Assembly (NCBI GenBank): GCA_017934595.1
Contig: JAGBJG010000008.1
Span: forward strand, 723-64,722
Source: Bacilli bacterium
GTDB lineage: Bacteria; Bacillota_I; Bacilli_A; RF39; UBA660
Reading direction: 5' to 3'
Length of the DNA: 64,000 bases
The translations under genes and the position numbers were made by a program. Below the pieces are notes generated by a model. The model was not told where the DNA came from. It ran no database searches and was given only the letters and a program-made list of their open reading frames with translations. The first letter of the stretch is position 1; every line of letters starts with the position of its first letter. Positions 37,281 to 46,026 of the stretch are shown one piece after another.

Positions 37281-37355
37281 ATTTTATCTACTTTTTTTCA
37301 TTTATCTATTTATTTCGTATTATTAAAATGCTATAATTTAAGTAGGGTGGTTTTT

Positions 37356-39404
37356 ATGGATAAAAATAGTAGTATAATTTTAGATTATCTAACTGATAGA
37401 GGCAAACCTATAAGTGCTGAAGGTATTGCTAATTATTTAAAGTTGGATAATTTTTTAGTTGAAAAGATATTATCTGAATTAAAATTAGAAAATAAAGTAG
37501 AAAAAAAAGGTAATAAGTATCGTGCTACTAATTATGTAACAGGTTTTGTAAAAATATCTAATAACGGTAAAATGTATATTAATCATGATAATAAAAAAAT
37601 ATTGTGTAATAATATTAGTGGATCTGAAATTACAGAGGGAGATTCTGTTTTATTTAAAATAACAAAAAAAGAAAAGAATTTTTGGTATGGTGAAATAGTT
37701 GGAATTGTTGATAAACGTATTAGAAATAATGTTGGTACTGTTATAAGTAGAGAAGGCGAACTTGTTATAAAAGGTAAAGATAAAAAATCCAATATATACA
37801 TTTATCCTAATTCTAAAGTTGTATCTGGTGATATAGTTAAATATAAACTAGGTGATAGAATAAGAGATTCTTTTTACGAAGGTGAAGTATTAGATGTAGT
37901 TGGCCGTGTAGATGAACCTAAAAGTGATATGACATCTATATTAGTAACTAATAATTTCCATGTTAAATTTCCAGAGGAAGTAATGGAAGAAGTTAAGAAA
38001 ATCGATGAAACAATTAGTCTAGAAAATAGACGCGATTTAAGAAATAATTTGATATTTACAATCGATGGTGATGATACTAAAGATATAGATGATGCAATCG
38101 AACTTGATAAACGTGATGATGGTACATATAAATTAGGTGTACATATAGCTGATGTTTCAAATTATGTTAAAATAGGTTCTGCATTAGATAATGAGGCATT
38201 CTTCCGTGGGACATCAGTATATCCACCATCTTCAGTAATACCAATGTTACCACATGAATTATCTTCTGGTGTATGTTCATTATTTGAAAATACAGATAGA
38301 TATGCACTTTCATGTGTAATGGAATTTTCATCAAGTGGAGACTTTATGGACTGTGAATTTTTTCCATCAGTTATTAATTCGAAAAAGAAAATGGCTTATT
38401 CAAAAGTAAATAGATTATTGGATACAGATACTCCATTTGGTTATGAAAAATTTGCGTCTGAATTAAAATTAATGAATGAATTTAAAAGTGTATTAAGAAA
38501 AAAAAGATTTGAAAATCAATCAATTAATTTTGATATTCCTAAATTAGGTGTTAAATTAAATGACTTAGGTACTCCTATATCCATTTATCAAGAGATACGT
38601 GGTGAAGCAGAAAAGTTAATTGAAGAATTTATGTTAATCACTAATATATGTACTGGTATGGTGGAAGATCGATATGGTTATGGCGCTTTCCGTACGCATG
38701 ATGTACCTGATATAGATAAACTTTATAAAGCAACATCAATTTTAGAAAAATTAGGCATTAAAATTCCTAAATATAATGATATAACAAAACACAAATTTAT
38801 TATTGAATTATCAAATAATATTAAAAATGGTTCATATAAAGATTTAGGTGAAGAATTATTATTGAAATGTATGTCTAGAGCTCAATATTCAAGAGTTAAT
38901 ACTGGACATTATGGTCTTAATTTTAAAAGATATGCACAGTTTACTTCTCCAATAAGAAGATATCCTGACTTAACTAATCATAGAGTAATAAAAGATATAT
39001 ATGGAATTGCAAATCCAAATTTTCCAACAGATAGAAAAGCATATTTAAATAATGTTTGTTCACACGCATCTATGCAAGAAAGAAATGCGGATGCTGCAGA
39101 AGCTATAATTAAGAAAATGAAAATGGCAGAGTTTATACAAGATGAAGTTGGTAAGGATTATGAAGGTCAAGTAGTAGATGTATATGCTAATTCTATAGAA
39201 GTTAAATTATCTAATGGTATTACTGGTACTATAGATCTAGGAGAAGGTAAAGATTTCAATAATTTTTCAGTACGAGCAAATGGTAAGACATATAGATATG
39301 GTCAAATGTTAAATGTTGCTATTGAAGATGTTTCGATAAATCCTGCAGTAATATCATTAGTAGATACAGATGTAAAAAGATTATCAAAAAAATATAAACA
39401 CTAA
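37356..39404 (+). CDS. rnr: Ribonuclease R
   Basis: RNB motifs TIDGDDTKDIDDA and FTSPIRRYPDL, with a C-terminal S1 domain. ATG 37356 lies behind GGGTGG. Confidence 0.9.
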   Translation: MDKNSSIILDYLTDRGKPISAEGIANYLKLDNFLVEKILSELKLENKVEKKGNKYRATNYVTGFVKISNNGKMYINHDNKKILCNNISGSEITEGDSVLFKITKKEKNFWYGEIVGIVDKRIRNNVGTVISREGELVIKGKDKKSNIYIYPNSKVVSGDIVKYKLGDRIRDSFYEGEVLDVVGRVDEPKSDMTSILVTNNFHVKFPEEVMEEVKKIDETISLENRRDLRNNLIFTIDGDDTKDIDDAIELDKRDDGTYKLGVHIADVSNYVKIGSALDNEAFFRGTSVYPPSSVIPMLPHELSSGVCSLFENTDRYALSCVMEFSSSGDFMDCEFFPSVINSKKKMAYSKVNRLLDTDTPFGYEKFASELKLMNEFKSVLRKKRFENQSINFDIPKLGVKLNDLGTPISIYQEIRGEAEKLIEEFMLITNICTGMVEDRYGYGAFRTHDVPDIDKLYKATSILEKLGIKIPKYNDITKHKFIIELSNNIKNGSYKDLGEELLLKCMSRAQYSRVNTGHYGLNFKRYAQFTSPIRRYPDLTNHRVIKDIYGIANPNFPTDRKAYLNNVCSHASMQERNADAAEAIIKKMKMAEFIQDEVGKDYEGQVVDVYANSIEVKLSNGITGTIDLGEGKDFNNFSVRANGKTYRYGQMLNVAIEDVSINPAVISLVDTDVKRLSKKYKH

Positions 39405-39429
39405 AAGCCACACATTGTGTGACTTTTTA
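39403..39429. terminator. Bidirectional terminator between rnr and DUF1016 copy 1
   Basis: aaaag-cCACAC-att-GTGTGa-cttttt. Confidence 0.6.
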
Positions 39430-40311
39430 ATTTACAATATACTCTCTTGATAATATTCTTTTATCAGAAGTATATTCTATAATAAATTCATTATTTTTTC
39501 TACATAGTATAATTCCAATAGTTTTATTATGATTTATCTTTTTTAAATTAATATCAATATAATTCATATATACTTGGACTTGTCCTATATCTTGTTTTCT
39601 TAGTTCATTTAATTTTAGTTCTATAACTATATAACAATTATATTCAATATTAAATAGTAATAAATCAATATAATTATATCTATCGCCCAGTTTAATAGGA
39701 TATTCATTTTTTATAAAAGTAAATCCAGTACCTAATTGTTCTAAGAATGAAGGTATATCTTCCATAATTAACATTTGTAATGCTTTTTCTTTTACTATAT
39801 CGACATTATTAGGATTATTTATAATAATAGGATTAGGAATATTATCAGGTAGAGTAGTAGTTTCATTATTAGATAGTTTTAATTTAGTATCTTTAGGTAA
39901 TCTTTCATATTCATTTGACTTAATTCTTTCTCTTAATTTATCACGACTAAGATTCAATGATATAGTTTTTTCAATATAATAATTAATTTCGTTAATATTT
40001 TTTATAGAAATAAGTTCTATCCAATGGCTCCATGTCAATTGGTGCGCGAATTGCGCACCTTTTTGAATTGACATATAAAATTGTCTCGTTCGTTTTAGTG
40101 ATGTGACATCATATCCTTTACCTAATTCTATTGTTAACTTAATGGAATATTGCTTTATAATACCTTCACCATAATGTTTGCCTGCATCATATAGTAATTT
40201 ACCAACATTGTATCTAGTTTCCAAGTTATGTTTGTTCTTAGAATAATCTTTAACTTTACTGTATACCTCGTTATTTATTAATTCATTTTTGATTAGTTCG
40301 TAATAATTCAT
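39427..40311 (-). CDS. yhcG: DUF1016/YhcG-family PD-(D/E)xK nuclease, copy 1
   Basis: LTWSHWIEL (N-domain motif). The C-terminal nuclease core is YIDLLLFNIEYNCYIVIELK (D...E-x-K) followed by QVQVYMNY. The start overlaps the end of copy 2. Confidence 0.8.
   Translation of the reverse strand: MNYYELIKNELINNEVYSKVKDYSKNKHNLETRYNVGKLLYDAGKHYGEGIIKQYSIKLTIELGKGYDVTSLKRTRQFYMSIQKGAQFAHQLTWSHWIELISIKNINEINYYIEKTISLNLSRDKLRERIKSNEYERLPKDTKLKLSNNETTTLPDNIPNPIIINNPNNVDIVKEKALQMLIMEDIPSFLEQLGTGFTFIKNEYPIKLGDRYNYIDLLLFNIEYNCYIVIELKLNELRKQDIGQVQVYMNYIDINLKKINHNKTIGIILCRKNNEFIIEYTSDKRILSREYIVN
39691..39939. repeat. About 249-bp near-identical block shared by copies 1 and 2 (partner 40584..40832)
   Basis: By eye about 10 mismatches in 249 nt at a constant offset of 893 nt, while the flanking gene parts are far more diverged. 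This is a mosaic, gene-conversion-like pattern. Confidence 0.8.
40032..40074. repeat. Intragenic GC-rich hairpin, copy 1
   Basis: + strand: ATGTCAATT GGTGCGC gaatt GCGCACC tttttg AATTGACAT. Inner stem 7 bp, outer stem 9 bp. Confidence 0.85.
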
Positions 40312-41219
40312 AAATTACCTCCTGTTAATTCATATTCCCTTACTGATATTCTTTCGTCAGATGAATATTCAATGACATATCTATTTTCTTTTTTACATAT
40401 AATAAGACCTATAGTTTTATTTTGATTTGATTCTTTTACATTTTTATCTATATAGTTAATATACATTTGAACTTGTCCTATATCCTGCTTTTTTAATTCA
40501 GTTACTTTTAATTCTATAACAACAAAACAATTGTATTTATAATTAAATAATAGTAAATCAACATAATTATATCTATTACCTAATTTAATAGGATACTCAT
40601 TTTTTATAAAAGTAAATCCAGTACCTAATTGTTCTAAGAATGAAGGTATATCTTCCATAATTAACATTTGTAATGCTTTTTCTTTTACTATATCAACATT
40701 ATTAGGATTCTTAATAATAATTGGGTTAGGAATATTATCAGGTAGAGTAGTAGTTTCATTATTAGATAGTTTTAATTTAGTATCTTCTGGTAATCTTTCA
40801 TATTCATTTGACTTGATTCTTTCTCTTAATTTTCTAACTGACAAATTTTGCGTTTCAACTAATCTAATGTAATAATTTATAATATTGATATTGTTAAGTG
40901 GGATAAGTTCGACATAATGAGACCAAGTTAATTTTCGCGACAATGTCGCGACATTTGAAAATAATAAATAAAACTGTCTGATTCTTAATAATGTTTTGTA
41001 ATCATACTTTTTATTAACTTCTTTAACTAATTTAATAGCATATTCCTTTATTAAATTTTCACCATATTTAGCCCTAGTTTCTCCTCCTTGGGCCTCAATA
41101 AGTAATTTACCTACATTATATCTAGTCTCTAAGTCATGCTTATTTTTAGAATAATCTTTAACTTTACTGTATACTTCGTTATTTATTAATTCAGTTTTTA
41201 TTAGTTCATAATAATTCAT
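40308..41219 (-). CDS. yhcG: DUF1016/YhcG-family PD-(D/E)xK nuclease, copy 2
   Basis: LTWSHYVEL; YVDLLLFNYKYNCFVVIELK; QVQMYINY. Confidence 0.8.
   Translation of the reverse strand: MNYYELIKTELINNEVYSKVKDYSKNKHDLETRYNVGKLLIEAQGGETRAKYGENLIKEYAIKLVKEVNKKYDYKTLLRIRQFYLLFSNVATLSRKLTWSHYVELIPLNNINIINYYIRLVETQNLSVRKLRERIKSNEYERLPEDTKLKLSNNETTTLPDNIPNPIIIKNPNNVDIVKEKALQMLIMEDIPSFLEQLGTGFTFIKNEYPIKLGNRYNYVDLLLFNYKYNCFVVIELKVTELKKQDIGQVQMYINYIDKNVKESNQNKTIGLIICKKENRYVIEYSSDERISVREYELTGGNL
40584..40832. repeat. Partner of the 249-bp block
   Basis: See 39691..39939. Confidence 0.8.
40935..40951. repeat. Intragenic GC-rich hairpin, copy 2 (homologous position)
   Basis: TCGCGAC aat GTCGCGA. Confidence 0.85.
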
Positions 41220-41225
41220 AATATA

Positions 41226-41264
41226 CCTCCTATAAACTTAATATGCCAAAACTTTTTTATATCC
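41226..41264. repeat. Left arm of the perfect 39-bp inverted repeat
   Basis: cctcctataaacttaatatgccaaaacttttttatatcc is the exact reverse complement of 43923..43961. It covers the SD and 5' region of DUF1016 copy 2. Confidence 0.9.
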
Positions 41265-41331
41265 TTTTTTATATAGTAAAAAACTTGTTTAATTTTAATA
41301 TTTAGTTTATAATTAATAATAGGGTGAGAAT

Positions 41332-43884
41332 ATGAATAAGAAGGGTTTTACATTAACTGAATTAATCGCGATATTAGTAATAATTTCAATTGTAGCTTTA
41401 ATAGCAGTACCAGCTGTAGTTAATTCAATTAAAAATAATAATCATGATTCATATAACGGTGTAGTAAATGATATTATATTGGCTTCAGAAACATATGCAG
41501 CTAATATGGGTGCTTCTATAGTTCAAGTATCAGTAGAAACTTTAAAACAAGCAGGATATTTATCACCTGATTTAAAAAATCCAATTGATAATTCTGATTT
41601 CAATGGTTGTGTATATATAGTTAATGGTGACCCTATATATAAAGAAGAAACTTGTAGTACAATTATAAAAAATGTAGACGGTGTAAGATTATATAAAGAT
41701 AGCATATTAAATGGATTAGATCCTGTATTAGATAAAGGATTAATTCCTGTTACAATCGGTGATGATGGAACAGTAACAAAAGCATCAATCGCGACTGAAT
41801 GGTATAATTATGGTGAAAAAAGATGGGCAAATGCCGTAATACTTAAGGGTAGTGATAATTATATTGAAGGTCAAACTATCCCTGAAAATAATATAGATGC
41901 ATATTTTGTATGGATACCTAAATTTAAATATAAATTATTTGATATGGGTAATTATACAACTTATTCTGGTACATCTAAACCAGATACTAGTAATGCGAAA
42001 ACATTAGATATAGTATTTGATCCAGTGAATACTACTGATTCAGATACTAGTTGTATGACTCCTCTAACTAGTGGGGCAAGTGGTAACTGTGCAGTAGGCA
42101 AGTATATGACTCATCCATCATTTATTACATTAGGAGTAAATGGATATTGGGTTGGTAAATATGAAACAAGTGGTACAACATCTGATTTAGATGTTAAACC
42201 TAATGTCTCATCTTTAAGAAGTACTACTGTAGGTGATTTCTTTACTTCAATGTATAACTATAATAGAGATTTAGACTCTCATATGATGAAAAATACAGAA
42301 TGGGGAGCAGTTGCATATTTATCCTTATCAAATTATGGCATAAATGGTGAAGTAAGAATTAATAATAGTTCGACTTATACAACTGGATGTGCGGCCACTG
42401 TAGCTAATACTACTAATGTTGGAGTTAGTCAATCAGATCATTCTGAAGGATATTATAATGGGTGTGAAAACGCGTATAATACAGCTACAGGATATTTAGC
42501 TTCAACTACTGGTAATATAACGGGTGTTTATGATATGTCTGGTGGTGCAAGGGAGTATTTAGCAGGATATATTAGTGGTGCAGGTGGTGGATTTACACCA
42601 TCAAGTTACAATGGCAAATATTATGATGTTTATGATTCTAATAGTTCAGTTAATTCTTATAATTACAGAATTTTAGGTGATGCGACTGGTGAAATGGGAC
42701 CATTTTATAAATATTCAGACAGTGATAATAATCAAAGAATTCATAGCAACTGGTTTGCTGATGGTTCTGATTTTATTGAATCTTCTGATTCATGGTTTGC
42801 ACGAGGCAACAATCATTATTATGGCGTGGTAGCAGGGCAAGCAGAATTTCATAAAGGTGCTGGCACAGATAGTAGTACTTTTAGTTCTCGTCTAGTTTTA
42901 GCTCCTGGTAGTACGGCTCGTGAGACTGCTTTAGGAACAACATGGACTTTTGATTATACAGGAAATGCACAAACATTTACTGTACCTGAAGATGGTAATT
43001 ATAAAATTGAACTTTGGGGAGCCCAAGGTGGAGCTTTATTTGATGAAGCTAATTATGGCGGTTATACTAGTGGAATATTGCCATTGAGAAATGAAAAATT
43101 ATATATTTATGTTGGCGCACAAGGTAATCAAGTTAGAAATGTAACTTTCAATGGTGGTGGATATGGTGGTGTCACGAATGGTATTAATAATAGTGGATCT
43201 GGCGCAGCTGGTGGTGGAGCCACTGATATCCGATTAGAAAATGGTGAATGGAATAATTTTAGCAGTTTAAAATCTAGAATTATGGTTGCTGCCGGAGGTG
43301 GTGGTTCAGCCTCAACTGCTTTATATTCGACAGCAGGACAGCATTCCTCAGCTGGTGGTCTTATTGGTTATAGTGGTGGTTATTATTCCGGCCATAGCTA
43401 TGTAATGCAGGAAGGTCAGGGTGCTTCACAAATAACAGGAGGCGCAGCAGGCGTTAATCATTATTCGTCGACTGGAACTAATTATGCTGGTACATTTGGT
43501 ATTGGTGGTAATAGTAATAGTACATCGGATAATAATGGTGCAGGTGGCGGCGGTGGCGGTTACTATGGTGGCGGCGCTGGTGGTGGTACTGCTGGCGGTG
43601 GCGGTGGCCAAGGTGGCGGCGGCGGTTCATCATTTATATCTGGATATTTTGGATGTAATGCTATCGCTGAATCTTCAACAGCATCTAATATAACACATAC
43701 AAATCAATCTAATCATTATAGTGGCAAAGTATTTACAAATGGTATAATGATAGATGGTGCAGGATGTAATTGGTCTACTGGTAGTGCTACTAACTGTGGC
43801 ACCAATCAACCACAACCTGATGGTACTATGGCAGTTGGTCATTCTGGTAATGGTTATGCTAAAATAACATTGATGTCATATTAA
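41332..43884 (+). CDS. Large pilin-leader protein: prepilin-type N-terminus, FGE-sulfatase (SUMF1)-like domain, and a glycine-rich (polyglycine) C-terminal domain
   Basis: MNKKGFTLTELIAILVIISIVALIA (G|FTLTE). NTEWGAVAYL, GVYDMSGGAREYLAGY and WFARGN resemble FGE-sulfatase motifs. YKIELWGAQGG, LYIYVGAQG, GGGATDIRL, GAGGGGGGYYGGGAGGGTAGGGGGQGGGGGSSF and GNGYAKITL mark the Gly-rich domain. Confidence 0.85.
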   Translation: MNKKGFTLTELIAILVIISIVALIAVPAVVNSIKNNNHDSYNGVVNDIILASETYAANMGASIVQVSVETLKQAGYLSPDLKNPIDNSDFNGCVYIVNGDPIYKEETCSTIIKNVDGVRLYKDSILNGLDPVLDKGLIPVTIGDDGTVTKASIATEWYNYGEKRWANAVILKGSDNYIEGQTIPENNIDAYFVWIPKFKYKLFDMGNYTTYSGTSKPDTSNAKTLDIVFDPVNTTDSDTSCMTPLTSGASGNCAVGKYMTHPSFITLGVNGYWVGKYETSGTTSDLDVKPNVSSLRSTTVGDFFTSMYNYNRDLDSHMMKNTEWGAVAYLSLSNYGINGEVRINNSSTYTTGCAATVANTTNVGVSQSDHSEGYYNGCENAYNTATGYLASTTGNITGVYDMSGGAREYLAGYISGAGGGFTPSSYNGKYYDVYDSNSSVNSYNYRILGDATGEMGPFYKYSDSDNNQRIHSNWFADGSDFIESSDSWFARGNNHYYGVVAGQAEFHKGAGTDSSTFSSRLVLAPGSTARETALGTTWTFDYTGNAQTFTVPEDGNYKIELWGAQGGALFDEANYGGYTSGILPLRNEKLYIYVGAQGNQVRNVTFNGGGYGGVTNGINNSGSGAAGGGATDIRLENGEWNNFSSLKSRIMVAAGGGGSASTALYSTAGQHSSAGGLIGYSGGYYSGHSYVMQEGQGASQITGGAAGVNHYSSTGTNYAGTFGIGGNSNSTSDNNGAGGGGGGYYGGGAGGGTAGGGGGQGGGGGSSFISGYFGCNAIAESSTASNITHTNQSNHYSGKVFTNGIMIDGAGCNWSTGSATNCGTNQPQPDGTMAVGHSGNGYAKITLMSY

Positions 43885-43912
43885 GATATAAGGAAACTTA
43901 TATCTTTTTTTT
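43883..43912 (+). terminator. Strong rho-independent terminator
   Basis: aagatataag-gaaa-cttatatctt followed by T8. Confidence 0.85.
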
Positions 43913-43922
43913 GGAAAAAAGA

Positions 43923-43961
43923 GGATATAAAAAAGTTTTGGCATATTAAGTTTATAGGAGG
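43923..43961. repeat. Right arm of the perfect 39-bp inverted repeat
   Basis: ggatataaaaaagttttggcatattaagtttataggagg; covers the SD and 5' region of DUF1016 copy 3. Confidence 0.9.
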
Positions 43962-43967
43962 TGAATT

Positions 43968-44861
43968 ATGAATTATTATGATGAGATAAAAGAAAGATTA
44001 ATTAAAAGCGAAATATATGATAAAGCAAAAGACTATGCGAAAGATAGAAATAAAGTTAATGTATACTATGAAATAGGTAAGTTATTAAGCGAAGCAGGTA
44101 AGGAGTATGGCAAAAATATAATTAAACAATATTCAGAAAAATTAATGATTGAAGTGGGTAAAAAATATAATGAAAGAAATTTGAGATATATGAGGCAATT
44201 TTATGAAGTGTTTTCAGGCACAAAATGGAACGCATTGCGTTCCAAATTGAGTTGGAGCCACTATAGAATTGTTTTATCACTTAAAAATACTGATGAAATA
44301 ATATATTATTTAACAGAATGCGAAAATAGGAATTTAACGTACAGACAATTGGACGAATTAGTTAGATGTGGTTATTATAATAGGTTAAGTGATAATACTA
44401 AAAGTAAATTAGCAATAGAAGATAAATTGGGAATAAATGATTTAATACCCAATCCTATAATTATAAAAAATGATTTGTTAACTGAAAATATATCTGAATA
44501 TGCACTTAAACAGATGATATTAAATAATTTGGATGATTTTTTAAAACAACTAGGATATGGATATTCTTATGTTGGTAATGAATATAGAATTAAGATAGGT
44601 GATAGATATAATTATATTGATTTACTACTATATAATATAGAATTTAATTGTTATGTTGTAGTTGAGCTTAAGATAACTGAATTTAAAAAAGAACATATCG
44701 GACAAGTTTTAGTATATATGAATTATATAGATGAACATCTAAAGAAGATTAATCAAGATAAGACAATAGGTATAATCATATGTAAAGAAGATAATGAGTA
44801 TGTTATTAAGTATTGTTTTGATGATAGAATTATAGTAAGAAAATATGAATTGATAGGATGA
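43968..44861 (+). CDS. yhcG: DUF1016/YhcG-family PD-(D/E)xK nuclease, copy 3 (more diverged)
   Basis: LSWSHYRIVL; YIDLLLYNIEFNCYVVVELK; QVLVYMNY. Confidence 0.8.
   Translation: MNYYDEIKERLIKSEIYDKAKDYAKDRNKVNVYYEIGKLLSEAGKEYGKNIIKQYSEKLMIEVGKKYNERNLRYMRQFYEVFSGTKWNALRSKLSWSHYRIVLSLKNTDEIIYYLTECENRNLTYRQLDELVRCGYYNRLSDNTKSKLAIEDKLGINDLIPNPIIIKNDLLTENISEYALKQMILNNLDDFLKQLGYGYSYVGNEYRIKIGDRYNYIDLLLYNIEFNCYVVVELKITEFKKEHIGQVLVYMNYIDEHLKKINQDKTIGIIICKEDNEYVIKYCFDDRIIVRKYELIG
44227..44243. repeat. Intragenic GC-rich hairpin, copy 3 (homologous position)
   Basis: GGAACGC att GCGTTCC. Confidence 0.85.
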
Positions 44862-44863
44862 GT

Positions 44864-44944
44864 TTTTATGAATTGTTTTCGATTGTAAAATTGTACCCAC
44901 TGGGTGTAAATTTGAGTTGGAGTTATTATAGAGAATTATTATAA
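44864..44944 (+). pseudogene. 26-codon fragment of a fourth DUF1016 gene (hairpin-containing segment only)
   Basis: FYELFSIVKLYPLGVNLSWSYYRELL* is colinear with copy 3 FYEVFSGTKWNALRSKLSWSHYRIVL. The nucleotide anchors ttttatgaa, tgttttc and ttgagttggag are shared. Confidence 0.65.
44892..44908. repeat. Hairpin in the DUF1016 fragment (homologous position)
   Basis: TGTACCC act GGGTGTA: 7 pairs if two G.U pairs are allowed, which holds only for sense-strand RNA. Confidence 0.6.
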
Positions 44945-44960
44945 TAAAAAAATGATGTTA

Positions 44961-45233
44961 TTACATCATTTGATAAGTAGAATTATTATAGTTAGTATTA
45001 GATATCATAGCTTCTAAATTACTAACTCTTTTTTCTAATGCATTAATTTGATTATATAAACTGTTATTATCTACACCTGTATAACTAGATGTTGTTTGCA
45101 TAATAGTATTCATAGGTTGATTACTCATATCCATATTCATTGGCATATTATAAGCCATAGGCATCATAGGCATTACTGGTCCCATATAAGGCATTCCCAT
45201 AGGCATTGAATTGCAATCTCTATCTTTATTCAT
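44961..45233 (-). CDS. Met/Pro-rich small protein with a C-terminal coiled-coil-like segment
   Basis: 90 aa. The N-terminal half is SMPMGMPYMGPVMPMMPMAYNMPMNMDM. A hairpin terminator (aaatgatgt-aat-aacatcatt) lies downstream on the minus strand. Confidence 0.6.
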   Translation of the reverse strand: MNKDRDCNSMPMGMPYMGPVMPMMPMAYNMPMNMDMSNQPMNTIMQTTSSYTGVDNNSLYNQINALEKRVSNLEAMISNTNYNNSTYQMM

Positions 45234-45333
45234 AAATATTCCTCTTTTCTAATTTAATATATGTTATTATTTTAAATTGGTTCATAATTTACTATTGTGG
45301 TTAATTTTGGTATAATTTATATAGGTGATTTAT

Positions 45334-45960
45334 ATGCGTCTTAGACATATTAAAAATGCAGATCAAGATATTAAAAAATCAAAGTATTATGTAGATGATC
45401 CAGAAAGTTATAAAGGATCTTTTAATAAACTATTTAATAATAAGAAACCAATTCATTTAGAAATAGGTATGGGTAAAGGTAATTTCATAATTGAAATGGC
45501 TAAAAGATTTCCTGATATCAATTTTATTGGATTAGAAAAATTTGATAGTGTATTAGTTAAAGCTGTGGAGAAGTTGGAATCTATAGAATTAGATAATTTA
45601 AAACTTATATGGTATGATGCAGCTACTATAGATAATCTTTTTGACAAAGAAATAGATACATTATATTTAAACTTTTCAGATCCATGGCCTAAAAAAAGAC
45701 ATGCAAAAAGAAGATTAACACATGAATCTTTCTTAGAAAAGTATGATAAAATATTTAAAAATACAAATAATATTATTATGAAGACTGATAATAGAAAGTT
45801 ATTTGAATATTCAGTTAAGTCATTCACTGATTATGGATATAAGATAGAGGATATATCATTAGACTTACATAGTGATGAAGTTGATATAGTTGAAACAGAA
45901 TATGAGAAAAAGTTTACTAAGAAGGGTAATGTTATATATAAAGTAAATGTAAATAAATAG
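45334..45960 (+). CDS. trmB: tRNA (guanine46-N7)-methyltransferase
   Basis: HLEIGMGKGNF (SAM-binding), NFSDPWPKKRHAKRR. ATG 45334 lies behind AGGTGAT. Confidence 0.9.
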   Translation: MRLRHIKNADQDIKKSKYYVDDPESYKGSFNKLFNNKKPIHLEIGMGKGNFIIEMAKRFPDINFIGLEKFDSVLVKAVEKLESIELDNLKLIWYDAATIDNLFDKEIDTLYLNFSDPWPKKRHAKRRLTHESFLEKYDKIFKNTNNIIMKTDNRKLFEYSVKSFTDYGYKIEDISLDLHSDEVDIVETEYEKKFTKKGNVIYKVNVNK

Positions 45961-46026
45961 TAAAAAATAATAAAAAAGTAAGAAAAAGTATTGAAAAGAT
46001 GTTATAATTTAGATGGTAGGTGAATC

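What the first reader, a model, noticed from the sequence alone, without database searches (positions are those of the whole stretch)
40032..44908. Covarying GC-rich hairpin at the same codon position in all four DUF1016/YhcG copies
Just upstream of the conserved L(T/S)WSH codons, every copy carries a 7-bp GC-rich inverted repeat with a 3-5 nt loop, and each copy has a different stem sequence.
- Copy 1: GGTGCGC-gaatt-GCGCACC (40041..40059), extended by outer 9-bp arms over 40032..40074.
- Copy 2: TCGCGAC-aat-GTCGCGA (40935..40951).
- Copy 3: GGAACGC-att-GCGTTCC (44227..44243).
- Orphan fragment: TGTACCC-act-GGGTGTA (44892..44908). Two of its pairs are G.U and so pair only in sense-strand RNA.

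The encoded peptides differ (GAQFAH, VATLSR, WNALRS, LYPLGV) while the pairing is kept. That is compensatory covariation, which points to selection on nucleic-acid structure inside a coding region. Perfect GC-rich 7-mers of this kind are very unlikely by chance in a genome this AT-rich, and four at homologous positions even less so.

On the antisense strand each hairpin is followed by a T-tract (TTTTTG, CATTTG, ATTTTG, ATTTTA). An antisense-direction terminator or the 3' end of a cis-antisense RNA is therefore one reading. Other readings are a sense-mRNA regulatory element bound by the protein itself, or a DNA cruciform/recombination site. I know of no described function for such an element in DUF1016 genes.
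Basis: seen in the sequence. Interest (0 to 1): 0.8.

Follow-up and report, generated by a model that had tools for sequence, protein, structure and literature searches.

The report
Conserved DNA hairpin inside YhcG genes
Every copy of this predicted nuclease gene (DUF1016/YhcG), from the AT-rich gut bacterium in the window to E. coli K-12 and phage contigs, carries a perfect, strictly Watson-Crick inverted repeat at the same codon; its sequence keeps changing while the pairing is kept, no such element has been described, and its function is unknown.

Summary
All four hairpins sit at the stated coordinates. They are the only GC-rich perfect 7-bp hairpins in the 64-kb window (4 found, 0.19 expected).

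The element extends to every DUF1016/YhcG subfamily sampled:
- About 115 gene copies from related gut Bacilli: 8-bp stem.
- 65 distant metagenomic homologs: 11-13 bp.
- Two further subfamilies on viral contigs: 7-13 bp.
- E. coli K-12 yhcG: 15 bp.

The centre falls on codon position 1 in nearly every copy. All 8 core pairs covary (93% paired, covariation 0.60 against 0.16 shuffled).

Silent third positions are chosen to pair: 4.64 of 5 against 1.39 expected. Opposite G, C is used 104 times and T twice, where flanking third positions are 5% C. This looks like a DNA-type constraint, not a sense-mRNA constraint.

The antisense T-tract is confined to the AT-rich clade (77% against 8%), so the terminator reading is not general.

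Rfam and the literature show nothing. My best guess is a cis-acting DNA hairpin on which replication, recombination or the encoded NucS/Hjc-like nuclease acts. That mechanism is inferred, not shown.

The parts
39427..40311 (-). DUF1016/YhcG copy 1 (294 aa)
   Evidence: ORF. Pfam DUF1016_N 5e-22 and YhcG_C 7e-33.
40041..40059 (.). Copy 1 inner hairpin: 7-bp stem GGTGCGC/GCGCACC with a 5-nt loop. It encodes G-A-Q-F-A-H. Centre at 40050.
40032..40074 (.). Copy 1 extended structure. The outer 9-bp arms ATGTCAATT/AATTGACAT enclose the inner hairpin, with a 6-nt bulge (TTTTTG on the + strand).
   Evidence: strand folding as DNA gives -15.4/-15.5 kcal/mol, z -4.7/-5.1.
40308..41219 (-). DUF1016/YhcG copy 2 (303 aa), in tandem with copy 1.
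40935..40951 (.). Copy 2 hairpin TCGCGAC-AAT-GTCGCGA. It encodes V-A-T-L-S-R. Centre at 40943.
43968..44861 (+). DUF1016/YhcG copy 3 (297 aa), divergent from copy 2 across the pilin-like gene.
   Evidence: The identical protein P0001 is present in public data.
44226..44244 (.). Copy 3 hairpin: 8-bp stem TGGAACGC/GCGTTCCA with loop ATT. It encodes W-N-A-L-R-S. Centre at 44235.
44858..44944 (+). Orphan fragment of a DUF1016 N-domain (MSFYELFSIVKLYPLGVNLSWSYYRELL*). It covers about 14 codons on either side of the hairpin centre.
   Evidence: Similar partial copies are common in related arrays.
44891..44909 (.). Degenerate orphan hairpin TTGTACCC-ACT-GGGTGTAA, with two G:T positions. Centre at 44900.
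   Evidence: The DNA fold is not significant, z -0.7.

Best explanation
**What it is (shown).** The element is an ancient, selected inverted repeat embedded in the coding sequence of a permissive surface linker of the DUF1016_N domain. Its stem sequence drifts freely. Strict Watson-Crick complementarity, G+C richness and a 3-nt loop are maintained, and the encoded amino acids and silent codon positions are forced to follow.

**At what level it acts (inferred from pattern).** So the constraint is most likely on DNA. That would mean a hairpin in single-stranded DNA, or a small cruciform that needs both strands to fold, not a hairpin in the sense mRNA.

**What it does (inferred, not shown).** I commit to this reading. 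The hairpin is a cis-acting DNA structure tied to each gene copy, and a structure-specific activity works on it. That activity could be the replication or recombination machinery, or the encoded NucS/Hjc-like PD-(D/E)XK nuclease itself. The consequence would be to mark, start or stop strand exchange in the variable N-terminal module, or to throttle transcription of a potentially toxic nuclease.
For: **Reality and selection.**
- In 113 unique copies from the window clade, 84-97% of the pairs at d=2-9 are Watson-Crick. The mean is 7.39 of 8, against a median of 2.4 at other centres.
- On 81 diverse sequences the 8-bp helix is 93.4% paired and all 8 pairs show changes on both sides. The covariation score is 0.599 against 0.155 shuffled (0 of 500 shuffles reach it), and 0.05-0.11 for slid controls.
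- RNAalifold finds the same helix independently.
- Pairs that involve a third codon position are Watson-Crick in 4.64 of 5 against 1.39 after synonymous resampling, and in 7.35 of 9 against 2.77 in the distant clade.
- Stem GC is 63% against 21% in the flanks.

**Family-wide.**
- E. coli K-12 yhcG has perfect 15-bp arms, AAAGATTTGGCAGAC-GCT-GTCTGCCAAATCTTT.
- The distant FPI..ELSWTHY clade has 11-13 bp arms.
- In the IPWGH clade, an unbiased best-hairpin search lands on the homologous site at codon position 1.
- A fourth clade mostly shows 8 of 9 pairs or better.
- Of 82 representatives clustered at 50% identity, 74% can encode at least 7 of 8 pairs, against 5% for background peptides.

**DNA-type constraint.**
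- Opposite G, the silent position is C 104 times and T 2 times. Flanking third positions are 5% C and 44% T.
- Opposite C, it is G 307 times and A 10 times.
- The distant clade shows the same pattern: 120 C to 5 T, and 94 G to 3 A.
- The central 3 nt behave as a loop. In the IPWGH clade d=1 is often non-complementary, for example loop AGC.

**Linker.** In the AlphaFold2 model, residues 87-92 lie between helices 69-82 and 96-103 and have lower pLDDT. Insertions of 0-40 aa occur directly after the hairpin.

**Link to recombination.**
- Paralogs have 90-100% identical ends and a divergent centre. Identity is lowest in or next to the hairpin window in most pairs.
- Arrays contain partial copies drawn only from the N-terminal half, and nearly all of them include the hairpin.
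- A conspecific contig shows a fresh gene-conversion tract between copy 2 and copy 1.
- In about 860 E. coli genomes, yhcG is broken inside the 3' arm.

**Nuclease fold.** The closest structural match is EndoMS/NucS. The literature links the YhcG domain to archaeal Holliday-junction resolvases (PMC1189080).

**Precedent.** The small promoter hairpins of phage N4 (one with a 7-bp stem is described) are extruded in vivo by supercoiling, and one placed in a promoter abolished its activity (PMC4496689).
Against: - There is no direct evidence that the DNA folds in vivo or that any protein acts on it.
- The hairpin is equally conserved in single-copy genes in housekeeping neighbourhoods and in E. 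coli. No paralog is available for recombination there, so a recombination role cannot be the whole story.
- Selection for evolvability or for a recombination barrier is second-order and weak, whereas retention is near-universal.
- The GC-rich centre is unfavourable for cruciform extrusion from duplex DNA.
- N4-type extrusion depends on particular loop bases that are absent here.
- The dip in identity at the hairpin may only reflect weak protein constraint in a loop. Other segments of the protein are as variable.
- The E. coli breakpoint is probably a single historical event.
- The sequences are phylogenetically related, so shuffle statistics overstate independence. The slid controls do not suffer from this.
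Confidence: 0.45

Rival explanations
1. A sense-mRNA hairpin. Under this reading it slows or gates translation, sets mRNA decay, or is bound by the nascent or mature nuclease for autoregulation of a toxic protein.
For: - The element is always inside the ORF and in a fixed codon phase, and it is independent of genomic context.
- Predicted RNA hairpins are stable, -10 to -22 kcal/mol with z -2.6 to -4.6.
- First-order selection through control of toxicity would explain near-universal retention.
- The orphan still folds as sense RNA through G.U pairs.
Against: - G.U is almost never used. Silent-site bias favours T over C about 9 to 1, and A-U pairs make up roughly a third of the stem. Yet there are 2 T against 104 C opposite G.
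- Over all non-Watson-Crick cells, G:T (14 and 30) is no commoner than A:C (24 and 35) or other mismatches (38 and 88).
- Triloops are not favoured in RNA.
- There is no Rfam relative.
Confidence: 0.2
2. The hairpin is an intrinsic terminator on the antisense strand, or the 3' end of a cis-antisense RNA. A variant of this reading has both the sense and antisense transcripts folding, which would explain the strict Watson-Crick pairing.
For: - The consensus scan calls the copy 1 and copy 3 hairpins terminator-like on the antisense strand.
- In the window clade, 77% have at least 5 T in the 8 nt after the antisense stem, against 3% on the sense strand.
- A requirement for both transcripts to fold would forbid wobble on either strand.
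- In the window, antisense read-through from the RNase R-type gene (RNB domain; it ends at 39404) or from the 44961-45233 ORF would meet these hairpins.
Against: - The T-tract is the conserved Glu-Lys codon pair GAA AAA, and AAA is the default Lys codon at 26% GC.
- It is absent from the distant clade (8%, flanks TTTCCA and TGAGCT), from the IPWGH clade and from E. coli, where the hairpin is even longer.
- In copy 1, and in relatives of its type, the T-tract lies in a bulge enclosed by an outer helix.
- At most this is a lineage-specific secondary use.
Confidence: 0.08
3. A non-adaptive, self-maintaining palindrome. An ancestral inverted repeat in an unconstrained linker is kept perfect by intramolecular template switching during replication, with no function.
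For: - Template switching is known to correct imperfect repeats into perfect ones and to produce one-step compensatory changes (PMC8794818, PMC5941160).
- It predicts strict Watson-Crick pairing on both strands, indifference to stem sequence, and outward growth where the protein allows. The stem is 15 bp in E. coli, where the LSWSH motif is degenerate.
- The linker tolerates anything, including long insertions.
- Hairpins in truncated copies are still 80% at 7 of 8 pairs or better.
Against: - Under the strong AT pressure of this clade, a merely copied repeat should drift to AT. Instead stems are 63% GC against 21% in the flanks, and G/C-rich codons such as TCG, GCG, ACC and AAC are chosen.
- Loss would be an absorbing state, yet 92-95% of intact copies keep at least 7 of 8 pairs across subfamilies only about 30% identical in protein.
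- Truncated copies show more mismatches (7.06 against 7.50 pairs) and have also lost conserved codons (W kept in 30 of 33). My rough per-nucleotide estimate puts the two losses at about the same rate, which suggests no autonomous drive.
- No other conserved-position palindrome appears in these genes or in the window.
Confidence: 0.12
4. A double-stranded palindromic operator. A homodimer, possibly the DUF1016 N-domain itself, binds two identical half-sites around an uncontacted 3-bp centre, and protein specificity co-evolves with the site it is encoded around.
For: - Strict two-fold symmetry with no concept of wobble.
- An unconstrained centre.
- The site lies in the middle of the most variable module of the paralogs, which would keep site and reader linked.
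- A GC-rich site would be unique in an AT-rich genome.
Against: - There are 57 different 8-nt arms among 115 copies and 45 among 65.
- Close relatives differ by single compensated pairs. Each such step would require a matching change in protein specificity, which is implausibly demanding.
- Contiguous pairing right up to the loop and G+C enrichment are what hairpin stability predicts, not what operators need.
- No DNA-binding fold was recognised in the N-domain.
Confidence: 0.06

Closest known systems
[quoted passage not shown]
   Same: Perfect inverted repeats lie inside functional protein-coding sequence. Both arms encode protein, so protein and secondary structure are preserved together. 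The function is unknown.
   Different: Those are long (up to 284 bp), numerous, spread over many genes of one genome, and lineage-specific. Here there is one short repeat (7-15 bp arms) at one homologous codon of one bacterial and phage gene family, kept across phyla with extensive covariation.
DNA hairpin promoters of phage N4 virion RNA polymerase (PMC4496689)
   Same: A small GC-rich DNA hairpin (a 7-bp stem is described there; 5-7 bp and a 3-nt loop from my memory of the primary papers). Non-conserved stem bases are free as long as pairing is kept. It is extruded from supercoiled DNA in vivo and can block a promoter.
   Different: N4 hairpins carry conserved bases (-11 purine, -10G, -8G, specific loop ends) and lie upstream of phage early genes. 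The DUF1016 loop is A-N-T or A-G-C with any central base, sits inside an ORF, and occurs in hosts of many phyla.
Integron attC sites and other folded-DNA recombination sites (my own knowledge of the field; Bikard et al. 2010 review recalled, not read here)
   Same: Structure is conserved rather than sequence. Different sequences occur in successive units of an array. Recognition is at the DNA level.
   Different: attC sites are 57-141 bp and imperfect, with extrahelical bases. They lie between cassettes and need an IntI integrase. Here the stems are perfect and short and sit in the middle of an ORF, and no integrase is nearby.
Rho-independent terminators
   Same: A GC-rich stem, a short loop and a T-run. 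These features are seen on the antisense strand in the window clade.
   Different: There is no T-run in the other clades. The element lies inside a CDS, is fixed to a codon phase, and refuses wobble.
DNA structures that trigger gene conversion in antigenic-variation loci: the pilE G-quadruplex and the vls inverted repeat (recalled from memory)
   Same: A cis-acting non-B DNA structure lies at a locus made of expressed genes plus partial silent copies, with conserved flanks and a variable centre.
   Different: There the structure lies beside the expression site and only there. Here it is inside every copy, including single-copy genes, and no conversion across the hairpin has been demonstrated.
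Inverted repeats kept perfect by template switching (PMC5941160, PMC8794818)
   Same: Perfect arms, one-step compensatory change, and conservation of perfect repeats among orthologs.
   Different: Those studies concern non-coding repeats or RNA genes. They do not predict G+C enrichment against mutational bias or retention across a whole protein family.

Membership tests
DUF1016/YhcG PD-(D/E)XK nuclease family (host genes) | DUF1016_N (PF17761) and YhcG_C (PF06250) domains above Pfam gathering scores | tested here: met
   All three full copies score 79-92 bits and 114-124 bits against cut-offs of about 32.5. They also match PADLOC candidate PDC-S02.
DUF1016/YhcG PD-(D/E)XK nuclease family (host genes) | Catalytic D...E-x-K core of the restriction-endonuclease fold | tested here: met
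   D218, E233 and K235 are invariant in alignment A2. The nuclease domain superposes on EndoMS/NucS.
Intrinsic (Rho-independent) terminator, antisense strand | GC-rich stem-loop | tested here: met
Intrinsic (Rho-independent) terminator, antisense strand | U/T-run immediately 3' of the stem, conserved with the hairpin | tested here: not met
   Present in 77% of the window clade but only 8% of the distant clade. It is absent in E. coli and in the IPWGH clade.
Intrinsic (Rho-independent) terminator, antisense strand | RNA 3' ends mapping to the T-run | not testable with these tools
   No transcriptome data are available for this organism.
Any described structured RNA (Rfam 15) | Match to a covariance model | tested here: not met
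   No hit at E<=1 in window 38500-46000. The only hit in E. coli yhcG is a chance miRNA-precursor match, 21 bits against an 80-bit cut-off.
Functional RNA hairpin (generic) | Tolerance of G.U pairs alongside A-U pairs | tested here: not met
   T occurs 2 times out of 111 opposite G, despite 44% T and 5% C at silent sites in the flanks. G:T cells are no commoner than A:C cells.
Integron attC site | Imperfect 57-141 bp palindrome with extrahelical bases, at cassette boundaries, with an IntI integrase | tested here: not met
   The stems are perfect, the whole element spans 17-33 bp, and it lies mid-ORF. Called genes within +/-6 kb include no integrase.
N4 vRNAP-type DNA hairpin promoter | Short stem with a 3-nt loop | tested here: met
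   The 7-8 bp stem and 3-nt loop are the dominant geometry in the window clade.
N4 vRNAP-type DNA hairpin promoter | Conserved recognition and extrusion bases (purine at the loop centre, loop 5'-G..A-3', -10G, -8G) | tested here: not met
   The loop is A-N-T, and all four bases occur at the centre: A 33, C 32, T 32, G 18. The required bases are as listed in PMC4496689.
Template-switch-maintained neutral inverted repeat | Base composition and decay follow mutation pressure, with no selection on stability | tested here: inconclusive
   G+C enrichment and near-universal retention argue for selection. Truncated copies carry more mismatches and have also lost conserved codons. Template switching may still be how compensation happens.

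The most novel reading that the evidence does not exclude
The gene is self-referential. Its coding sequence carries, at a fixed codon, the DNA hairpin or cruciform that its own Holliday-junction/NucS-like nuclease binds or cuts. When two alleles with different palindromes form a heteroduplex, each strand would fold on itself, giving a ready-made four-way junction.

This would let the nuclease start, stop or police segmental gene conversion of its variable N-terminal module, or switch itself on when DNA topology changes during infection. That would be a new class of structure-coded cis element in a widespread candidate defence gene.
Probability: 0.2. Interest if true: 0.95.

Novelty: categorically new. 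Interest (0 to 1): 0.86.

Why it matters
DUF1016/YhcG is a very large family of uncharacterised nucleases. The search found 7,946 hits at E<=0.001 among representatives clustered at 50% identity. Members occur in defence islands, type I restriction operons, phages, conjugative elements and E. coli K-12.

Over the whole depth of the family sampled here, a nucleic-acid structure has overridden both amino-acid identity and codon bias at one site. This is rare for a bacterial protein-coding gene. It is a strong clue to how these genes are controlled, moved or diversified.

The strict Watson-Crick pattern points to DNA, not RNA. If that is confirmed, it would be an unusual case of a functional DNA hairpin fixed inside an ORF.

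The question is immediately testable, because E. coli K-12 yhcG carries a perfect 33-bp version.

There is also a caution for annotation and evolutionary analysis. The apparent co-evolution of residues -3..-1 with +1..+3 in this protein is imposed by base pairing, not by protein contacts.

Tried and rejected
- **Chance or composition.** Rejected by shuffles of the window and by the profile of all other centres in the genes.
- **Protein-level co-evolution of a loop.** Rejected because silent third positions follow the pairing.
- **Known RNA family.** No Rfam match.
- **Prior description.** Full-text searches for DUF1016, yhcG, COG4804/PF06250, PDC-S02 and coding palindromes found no mention of the element. 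PMC9881135 reports only that DUF1016 genes neighbour loci with programmed inversions.
- **Terminator as the general function.** Rejected by clade comparison.
- **Repeated element or target elsewhere in the genome.** The arm sequences do not recur meaningfully in the window. The E. coli palindrome maps to the yhcG locus only.
- **Recombination breakpoints exactly at the hairpin among paralogs.** Sliding identity shows a broad variable centre, not a sharp switch. This is suggestive only.
- **Spacer inversion signature.** I looked for enrichment of complementary changes at the central base. The counts were 10 complement, 7 transition and 9 other, which is uninformative.
- **Strain-to-strain cassette switching.** The only conspecific contigs are almost identical.
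- **E. coli allele comparison.** There are no SNPs in the palindrome, but fewer than one is expected, so this is uninformative.
- **Start codon presented in the loop.** Codon 0 is NTG in two clades but GTT, GCT or TTT in the IPWGH clade, so this is rejected.
- **-1 frameshift site.** There is no X XXY YYZ heptamer at a workable spacing (read from the sequence).
- **Structural clue from the N-domain.** Foldseek found no convincing N-domain match, and the sequence search of PDB found only a weak Cas4 hit.
- **First related-locus scan.** The first search for related loci attempt, with a 32-sequence alignment, failed for lack of a conserved stretch.

Full report
**1. Observation**

The region holds three full DUF1016/YhcG genes. 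Copy 1 is at 39427-40311 (-), copy 2 at 40308-41219 (-) and copy 3 at 43968-44861 (+). A 28-codon orphan fragment lies at 44858-44944.

All four are centred on the first base of the codon six codons upstream of the W of L(S/T)W(S)(H/Y).

The window is 26% G+C. The only perfect 7-bp stems with a 3-5 nt loop and at least 4 G/C in all 64 kb are these three sites. That is 4 hits against 0.19 +/- 0.43 in dinucleotide shuffles.

Folded as DNA or RNA, on either strand, the three intact hairpins give z-scores of -2.5 to -5.1. Copy 1 has an extra 9-bp outer helix. The orphan is not significant as DNA and pairs only through two G.U in sense RNA.

**2. The element extends through the family**

*Protein level.* Close protein homologs already show it. 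The peptides WNA(L/M)RS, WNP(L/V/M)GS, WNTMCS, WSTMWT, VAPLAQ and LPPVGA are exactly the sets that can be encoded by a perfect hairpin.

*Window clade.* A scan of one genome per species returned 80 loci from AT-rich gut Bacilli, many with tandem arrays of 2-5 paralogs.
- Nearly every copy has a perfect 7-8 bp stem with a 3-nt loop at the same codon.
- There are 57 different 8-nt arms among 115 copies.
- Pairs at distance 2-9 from the centre are Watson-Crick in 84-97% of 113 unique copies.
- The mean is 7.39 of 8, against a median of 2.4 for every other centre within +/-140 nt.

*Distant clade.* This clade has about 30% protein identity to the window copies. Its motif is FPI-xxx-L-xxx-ELSWTHY, and it comes from metagenomic contigs of 25-62% G+C. 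The arms are 11-13 bp, for example CAATTCGCGACGC-ACT-GCGTCGCGAATTG, again with many different stems.

*IPWGH clade.* On viral contigs, an unbiased search for the best hairpin in the first 700 nt lands on the homologous site. It falls at codon position 1, with 7-13 bp arms and a different closing pair, A:T.

*Fourth clade.* This clade has 0-40 aa inserted after the hairpin. It mostly keeps 8 of 9 pairs or better, and a few members look degraded.

*E. coli.* K-12 yhcG has perfect 15-bp arms, AAAGATTTGGCAGAC-GCT-GTCTGCCAAATCTTT, around the same Leu codon.

*Representatives.* Of 82 proteins clustered at 50% identity, 52% can encode 8 of 8 pairs and 74% at least 7 of 8 in the fixed register. For background heptapeptides the figures are 0% and 5%.

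**3. Covariation and selection**

- On 81 diverse sequences the inner helix is 93.4% paired and all eight pairs show double-sided changes.
- Covariation is 0.599, against 0.155 for shuffles (0 of 500 reach it) and 0.05-0.11 when partners are slid by 1-3 columns.
- RNAalifold predicts the same eight pairs.
- Five of the eight pairs join a third codon position to a second position. These are Watson-Crick in 4.64 of 5, against 1.39 when codons are redrawn synonymously from local usage. In the distant clade the figures are 7.35 of 9 against 2.77.
- Stems are 63% G+C where the flanks are 21%. Otherwise rare codons such as TCG, GCG, AAC and ACC are used to achieve this.

So the signal cannot be protein co-evolution. 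It also runs against mutational bias.

**4. Which molecule?**

In the AT-rich clade, silent positions in the flanks are 44% T and 5% C.
- Opposite a G in the stem, the silent base is C 104 times and T twice. T would give G.U in sense RNA.
- Opposite a C, it is G 307 times and A 10 times. A would give G.U in antisense RNA.
- The distant clade behaves the same way.
- Overall, G:T cells (14 and 30) are not commoner than A:C cells (24 and 35) or other mismatches (38 and 88).

A:T pairs, which in RNA are about as stable as G.U, make up roughly a third of the stem. Refusing wobble on both strands therefore fits a DNA hairpin or cruciform, or a need for both transcripts to fold, better than a sense-mRNA element.

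The three central bases behave as a true loop. All four bases occur at the centre, and d=1 is often non-complementary in the IPWGH clade. This argues for intrastrand pairing over a simple duplex operator.

This step is an inference from pattern, not a demonstration.

**5. The terminator idea**

The antisense T-run is the Glu-Lys codon pair GAA AAA.
- It is present in 77% of the window clade, where the scan does call copies 1 and 3 terminator-like.
- It is present in only 8% of the distant clade, and is absent in E. coli and the IPWGH clade.
- In copy 1 it sits in a bulge closed by an outer helix.

It may be a local secondary use. It is not what has conserved the hairpin.

**6. Protein and context**

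- In an AlphaFold2 model (mean pLDDT 81), residues 87-92 form a loop or short turn between helices 69-82 and 96-103, with reduced confidence. This linker also accepts long insertions.
- The nuclease domain matches EndoMS/NucS best. The literature links YhcG to archaeal Holliday-junction resolvases and NucS-like DUF91 (PMC1189080).
- The family is the PADLOC defence candidate PDC-S02, and is enriched beside loci with programmed inversions and inside type I RM operons (PMC9881135).
- Neighbours of the distant homologs range from RM genes to plain housekeeping genes. The hairpin therefore belongs to the gene, not to a context.

**7. Hints of a link with recombination**

- Paralogs have 90-100% identical ends and a divergent centre of about 240 nt. 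Identity is lowest in or next to the hairpin window in most pairs. Family-wide, however, other segments are as variable.
- Arrays contain many partial copies, all from the N-terminal half and nearly all including the hairpin.
- Truncated copies keep the hairpin slightly less well (7.06 against 7.50 pairs) and have also lost conserved codons such as W. My rough per-nucleotide estimate puts the two losses at about the same rate, which argues against an autonomous drive.
- A conspecific contig differs from the window only by a 5-SNP tract that converts copy 1 to the copy 2 sequence.
- In about 860 E. coli genomes, yhcG is broken inside the 3' arm of the palindrome.

None of this proves that the hairpin acts in recombination.

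**8. Explanation and rivals**

| Reading | Confidence |
|---|---|
| Selected cis-acting DNA hairpin on which a structure-specific activity works | 0.45 |
| Sense-mRNA hairpin | 0.20 |
| Neutral palindrome kept perfect by template switching (PMC8794818, PMC5941160) | 0.12 |
| Antisense terminator or paired sense and antisense RNAs | 0.08 |
| Co-evolving duplex operator | 0.06 |

*Best-supported reading.* The structure-specific activity could be the encoded nuclease. The role would be control of strand exchange in the variable module and/or of expression. The existence and selection of the element are shown. The DNA level is inferred from the pattern. The function is inferred only. Phage N4 promoters show that small promoter hairpins can be extruded in vivo (PMC4496689), but their special loop bases are absent here.

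*Neutral palindrome.* This is weakened by G+C enrichment, by near-universal retention, and by the extra mismatches in truncated copies.

*Duplex operator.* This is weakened by the sheer number of stems and by the single-pair compensations seen between close relatives.

**9. Novelty**

No Rfam family and no paper in the searched library describes the element. The nearest described phenomenon is coding palindromes in hairworm mitochondria (PMC6649704). That differs in scale, distribution and evolutionary pattern.

**Caveats**

- Many sequences are from metagenome bins and are phylogenetically related.
- The shuffle controls ignore relatedness. The slid and synonymous controls do not.
- All functional statements await experiment.

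Noticed in passing
window 41141-41282 and 43905-44046, flanking 41332-43884: A 142-nt inverted repeat (79% identity) is formed by the 5' ends and upstream regions of copy 2 and copy 3. It brackets an 850-aa gene with a type IV pilin-like N-terminal methylation motif and an ALK/LTK glycine-rich domain. This could be an invertible or co-regulated unit.
   Followed up: no
window 39802-39832 (copy 1) compared with 40695-40725 (copy 2); locus L186: A conspecific contig is identical to the window over 12.9 kb, except for 5 clustered SNPs that turn copy 1 into the copy 2 sequence. This is a fresh gene-conversion tract between tandem paralogs.
   Followed up: partly
L015, L016, L020, L021, L023 (arrays related to window 39427-44944): DUF1016 arrays mix full genes with partial copies that all come from the N-terminal half (query residues 1-96 to 1-208, 57-131, 65-141, 58-106). 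No C-terminal-only fragments were seen in the six sources mapped (five loci plus the window). 35 of 146 hairpin sites lie in truncated ORFs.
   Followed up: partly
proteins P0003, P0004, P0008, P0017, P0035, P0040 (homologs of window 43968-44861): These 402-404-aa homologs are in-frame fusions of an N-module (residues 1-107, with its own hairpin; in several of them the W of LSWSH is lost) to a complete second copy, joined at NIDEI|KEKL. This suggests recurrent recombination between the similar N-terminal (NYYDEIKE) and internal (NxDEIxYY) motifs.
   Followed up: partly
L185 3001-3140 (E. coli TKEC21-17) compared with L081 18196-18245 (K-12 yhcG): In about 860 of 3559 E. coli genomes, yhcG ends inside the 3' arm of the palindrome (...GTCTGCCAAAT|TGAGAGG). 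It is followed by a 101-aa ORF annotated as a transposase, with no Pfam hit. The locus between gltD and nanQ also differs in gene content between strains.
   Followed up: partly
window paralog pairs; L010, L021, L024, L029, L031: Paralogs share 90-100% identical 5' and 3' ends but have a divergent block of about 240 nt (-110 to +130 nt around the hairpin, residues about 52-132). This resembles a variable specificity cassette with homogenised flanks.
   Followed up: partly
window 39403-39427: An 11-bp stem hairpin, AAAAGTCACACAATGTGTGGCTTTT, lies between the end of the RNase R-type gene (RNB domain; 37347-39404, +) and the end of DUF1016 copy 1 (-). It has A/T runs on both sides and looks like a bidirectional terminator.
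   Followed up: no
window 44961-45233 (-): A 90-aa ORF very rich in Met and Pro (MPMGMPYMGPVMPMMPMAYNMPMNMDM...) converges on the orphan fragment. It is called as a gene in the conspecific contig and has no Pfam family on record.
   Followed up: no
L190-L192, L211 (viral contigs): In one subfamily the hairpin-encoding peptide (KSET-A-SRIF) is followed about 10 residues later by a second QTLSAQ-like stretch before LSWSHY. This may be a duplicated and degenerate second copy of the hairpin segment.
   Followed up: no
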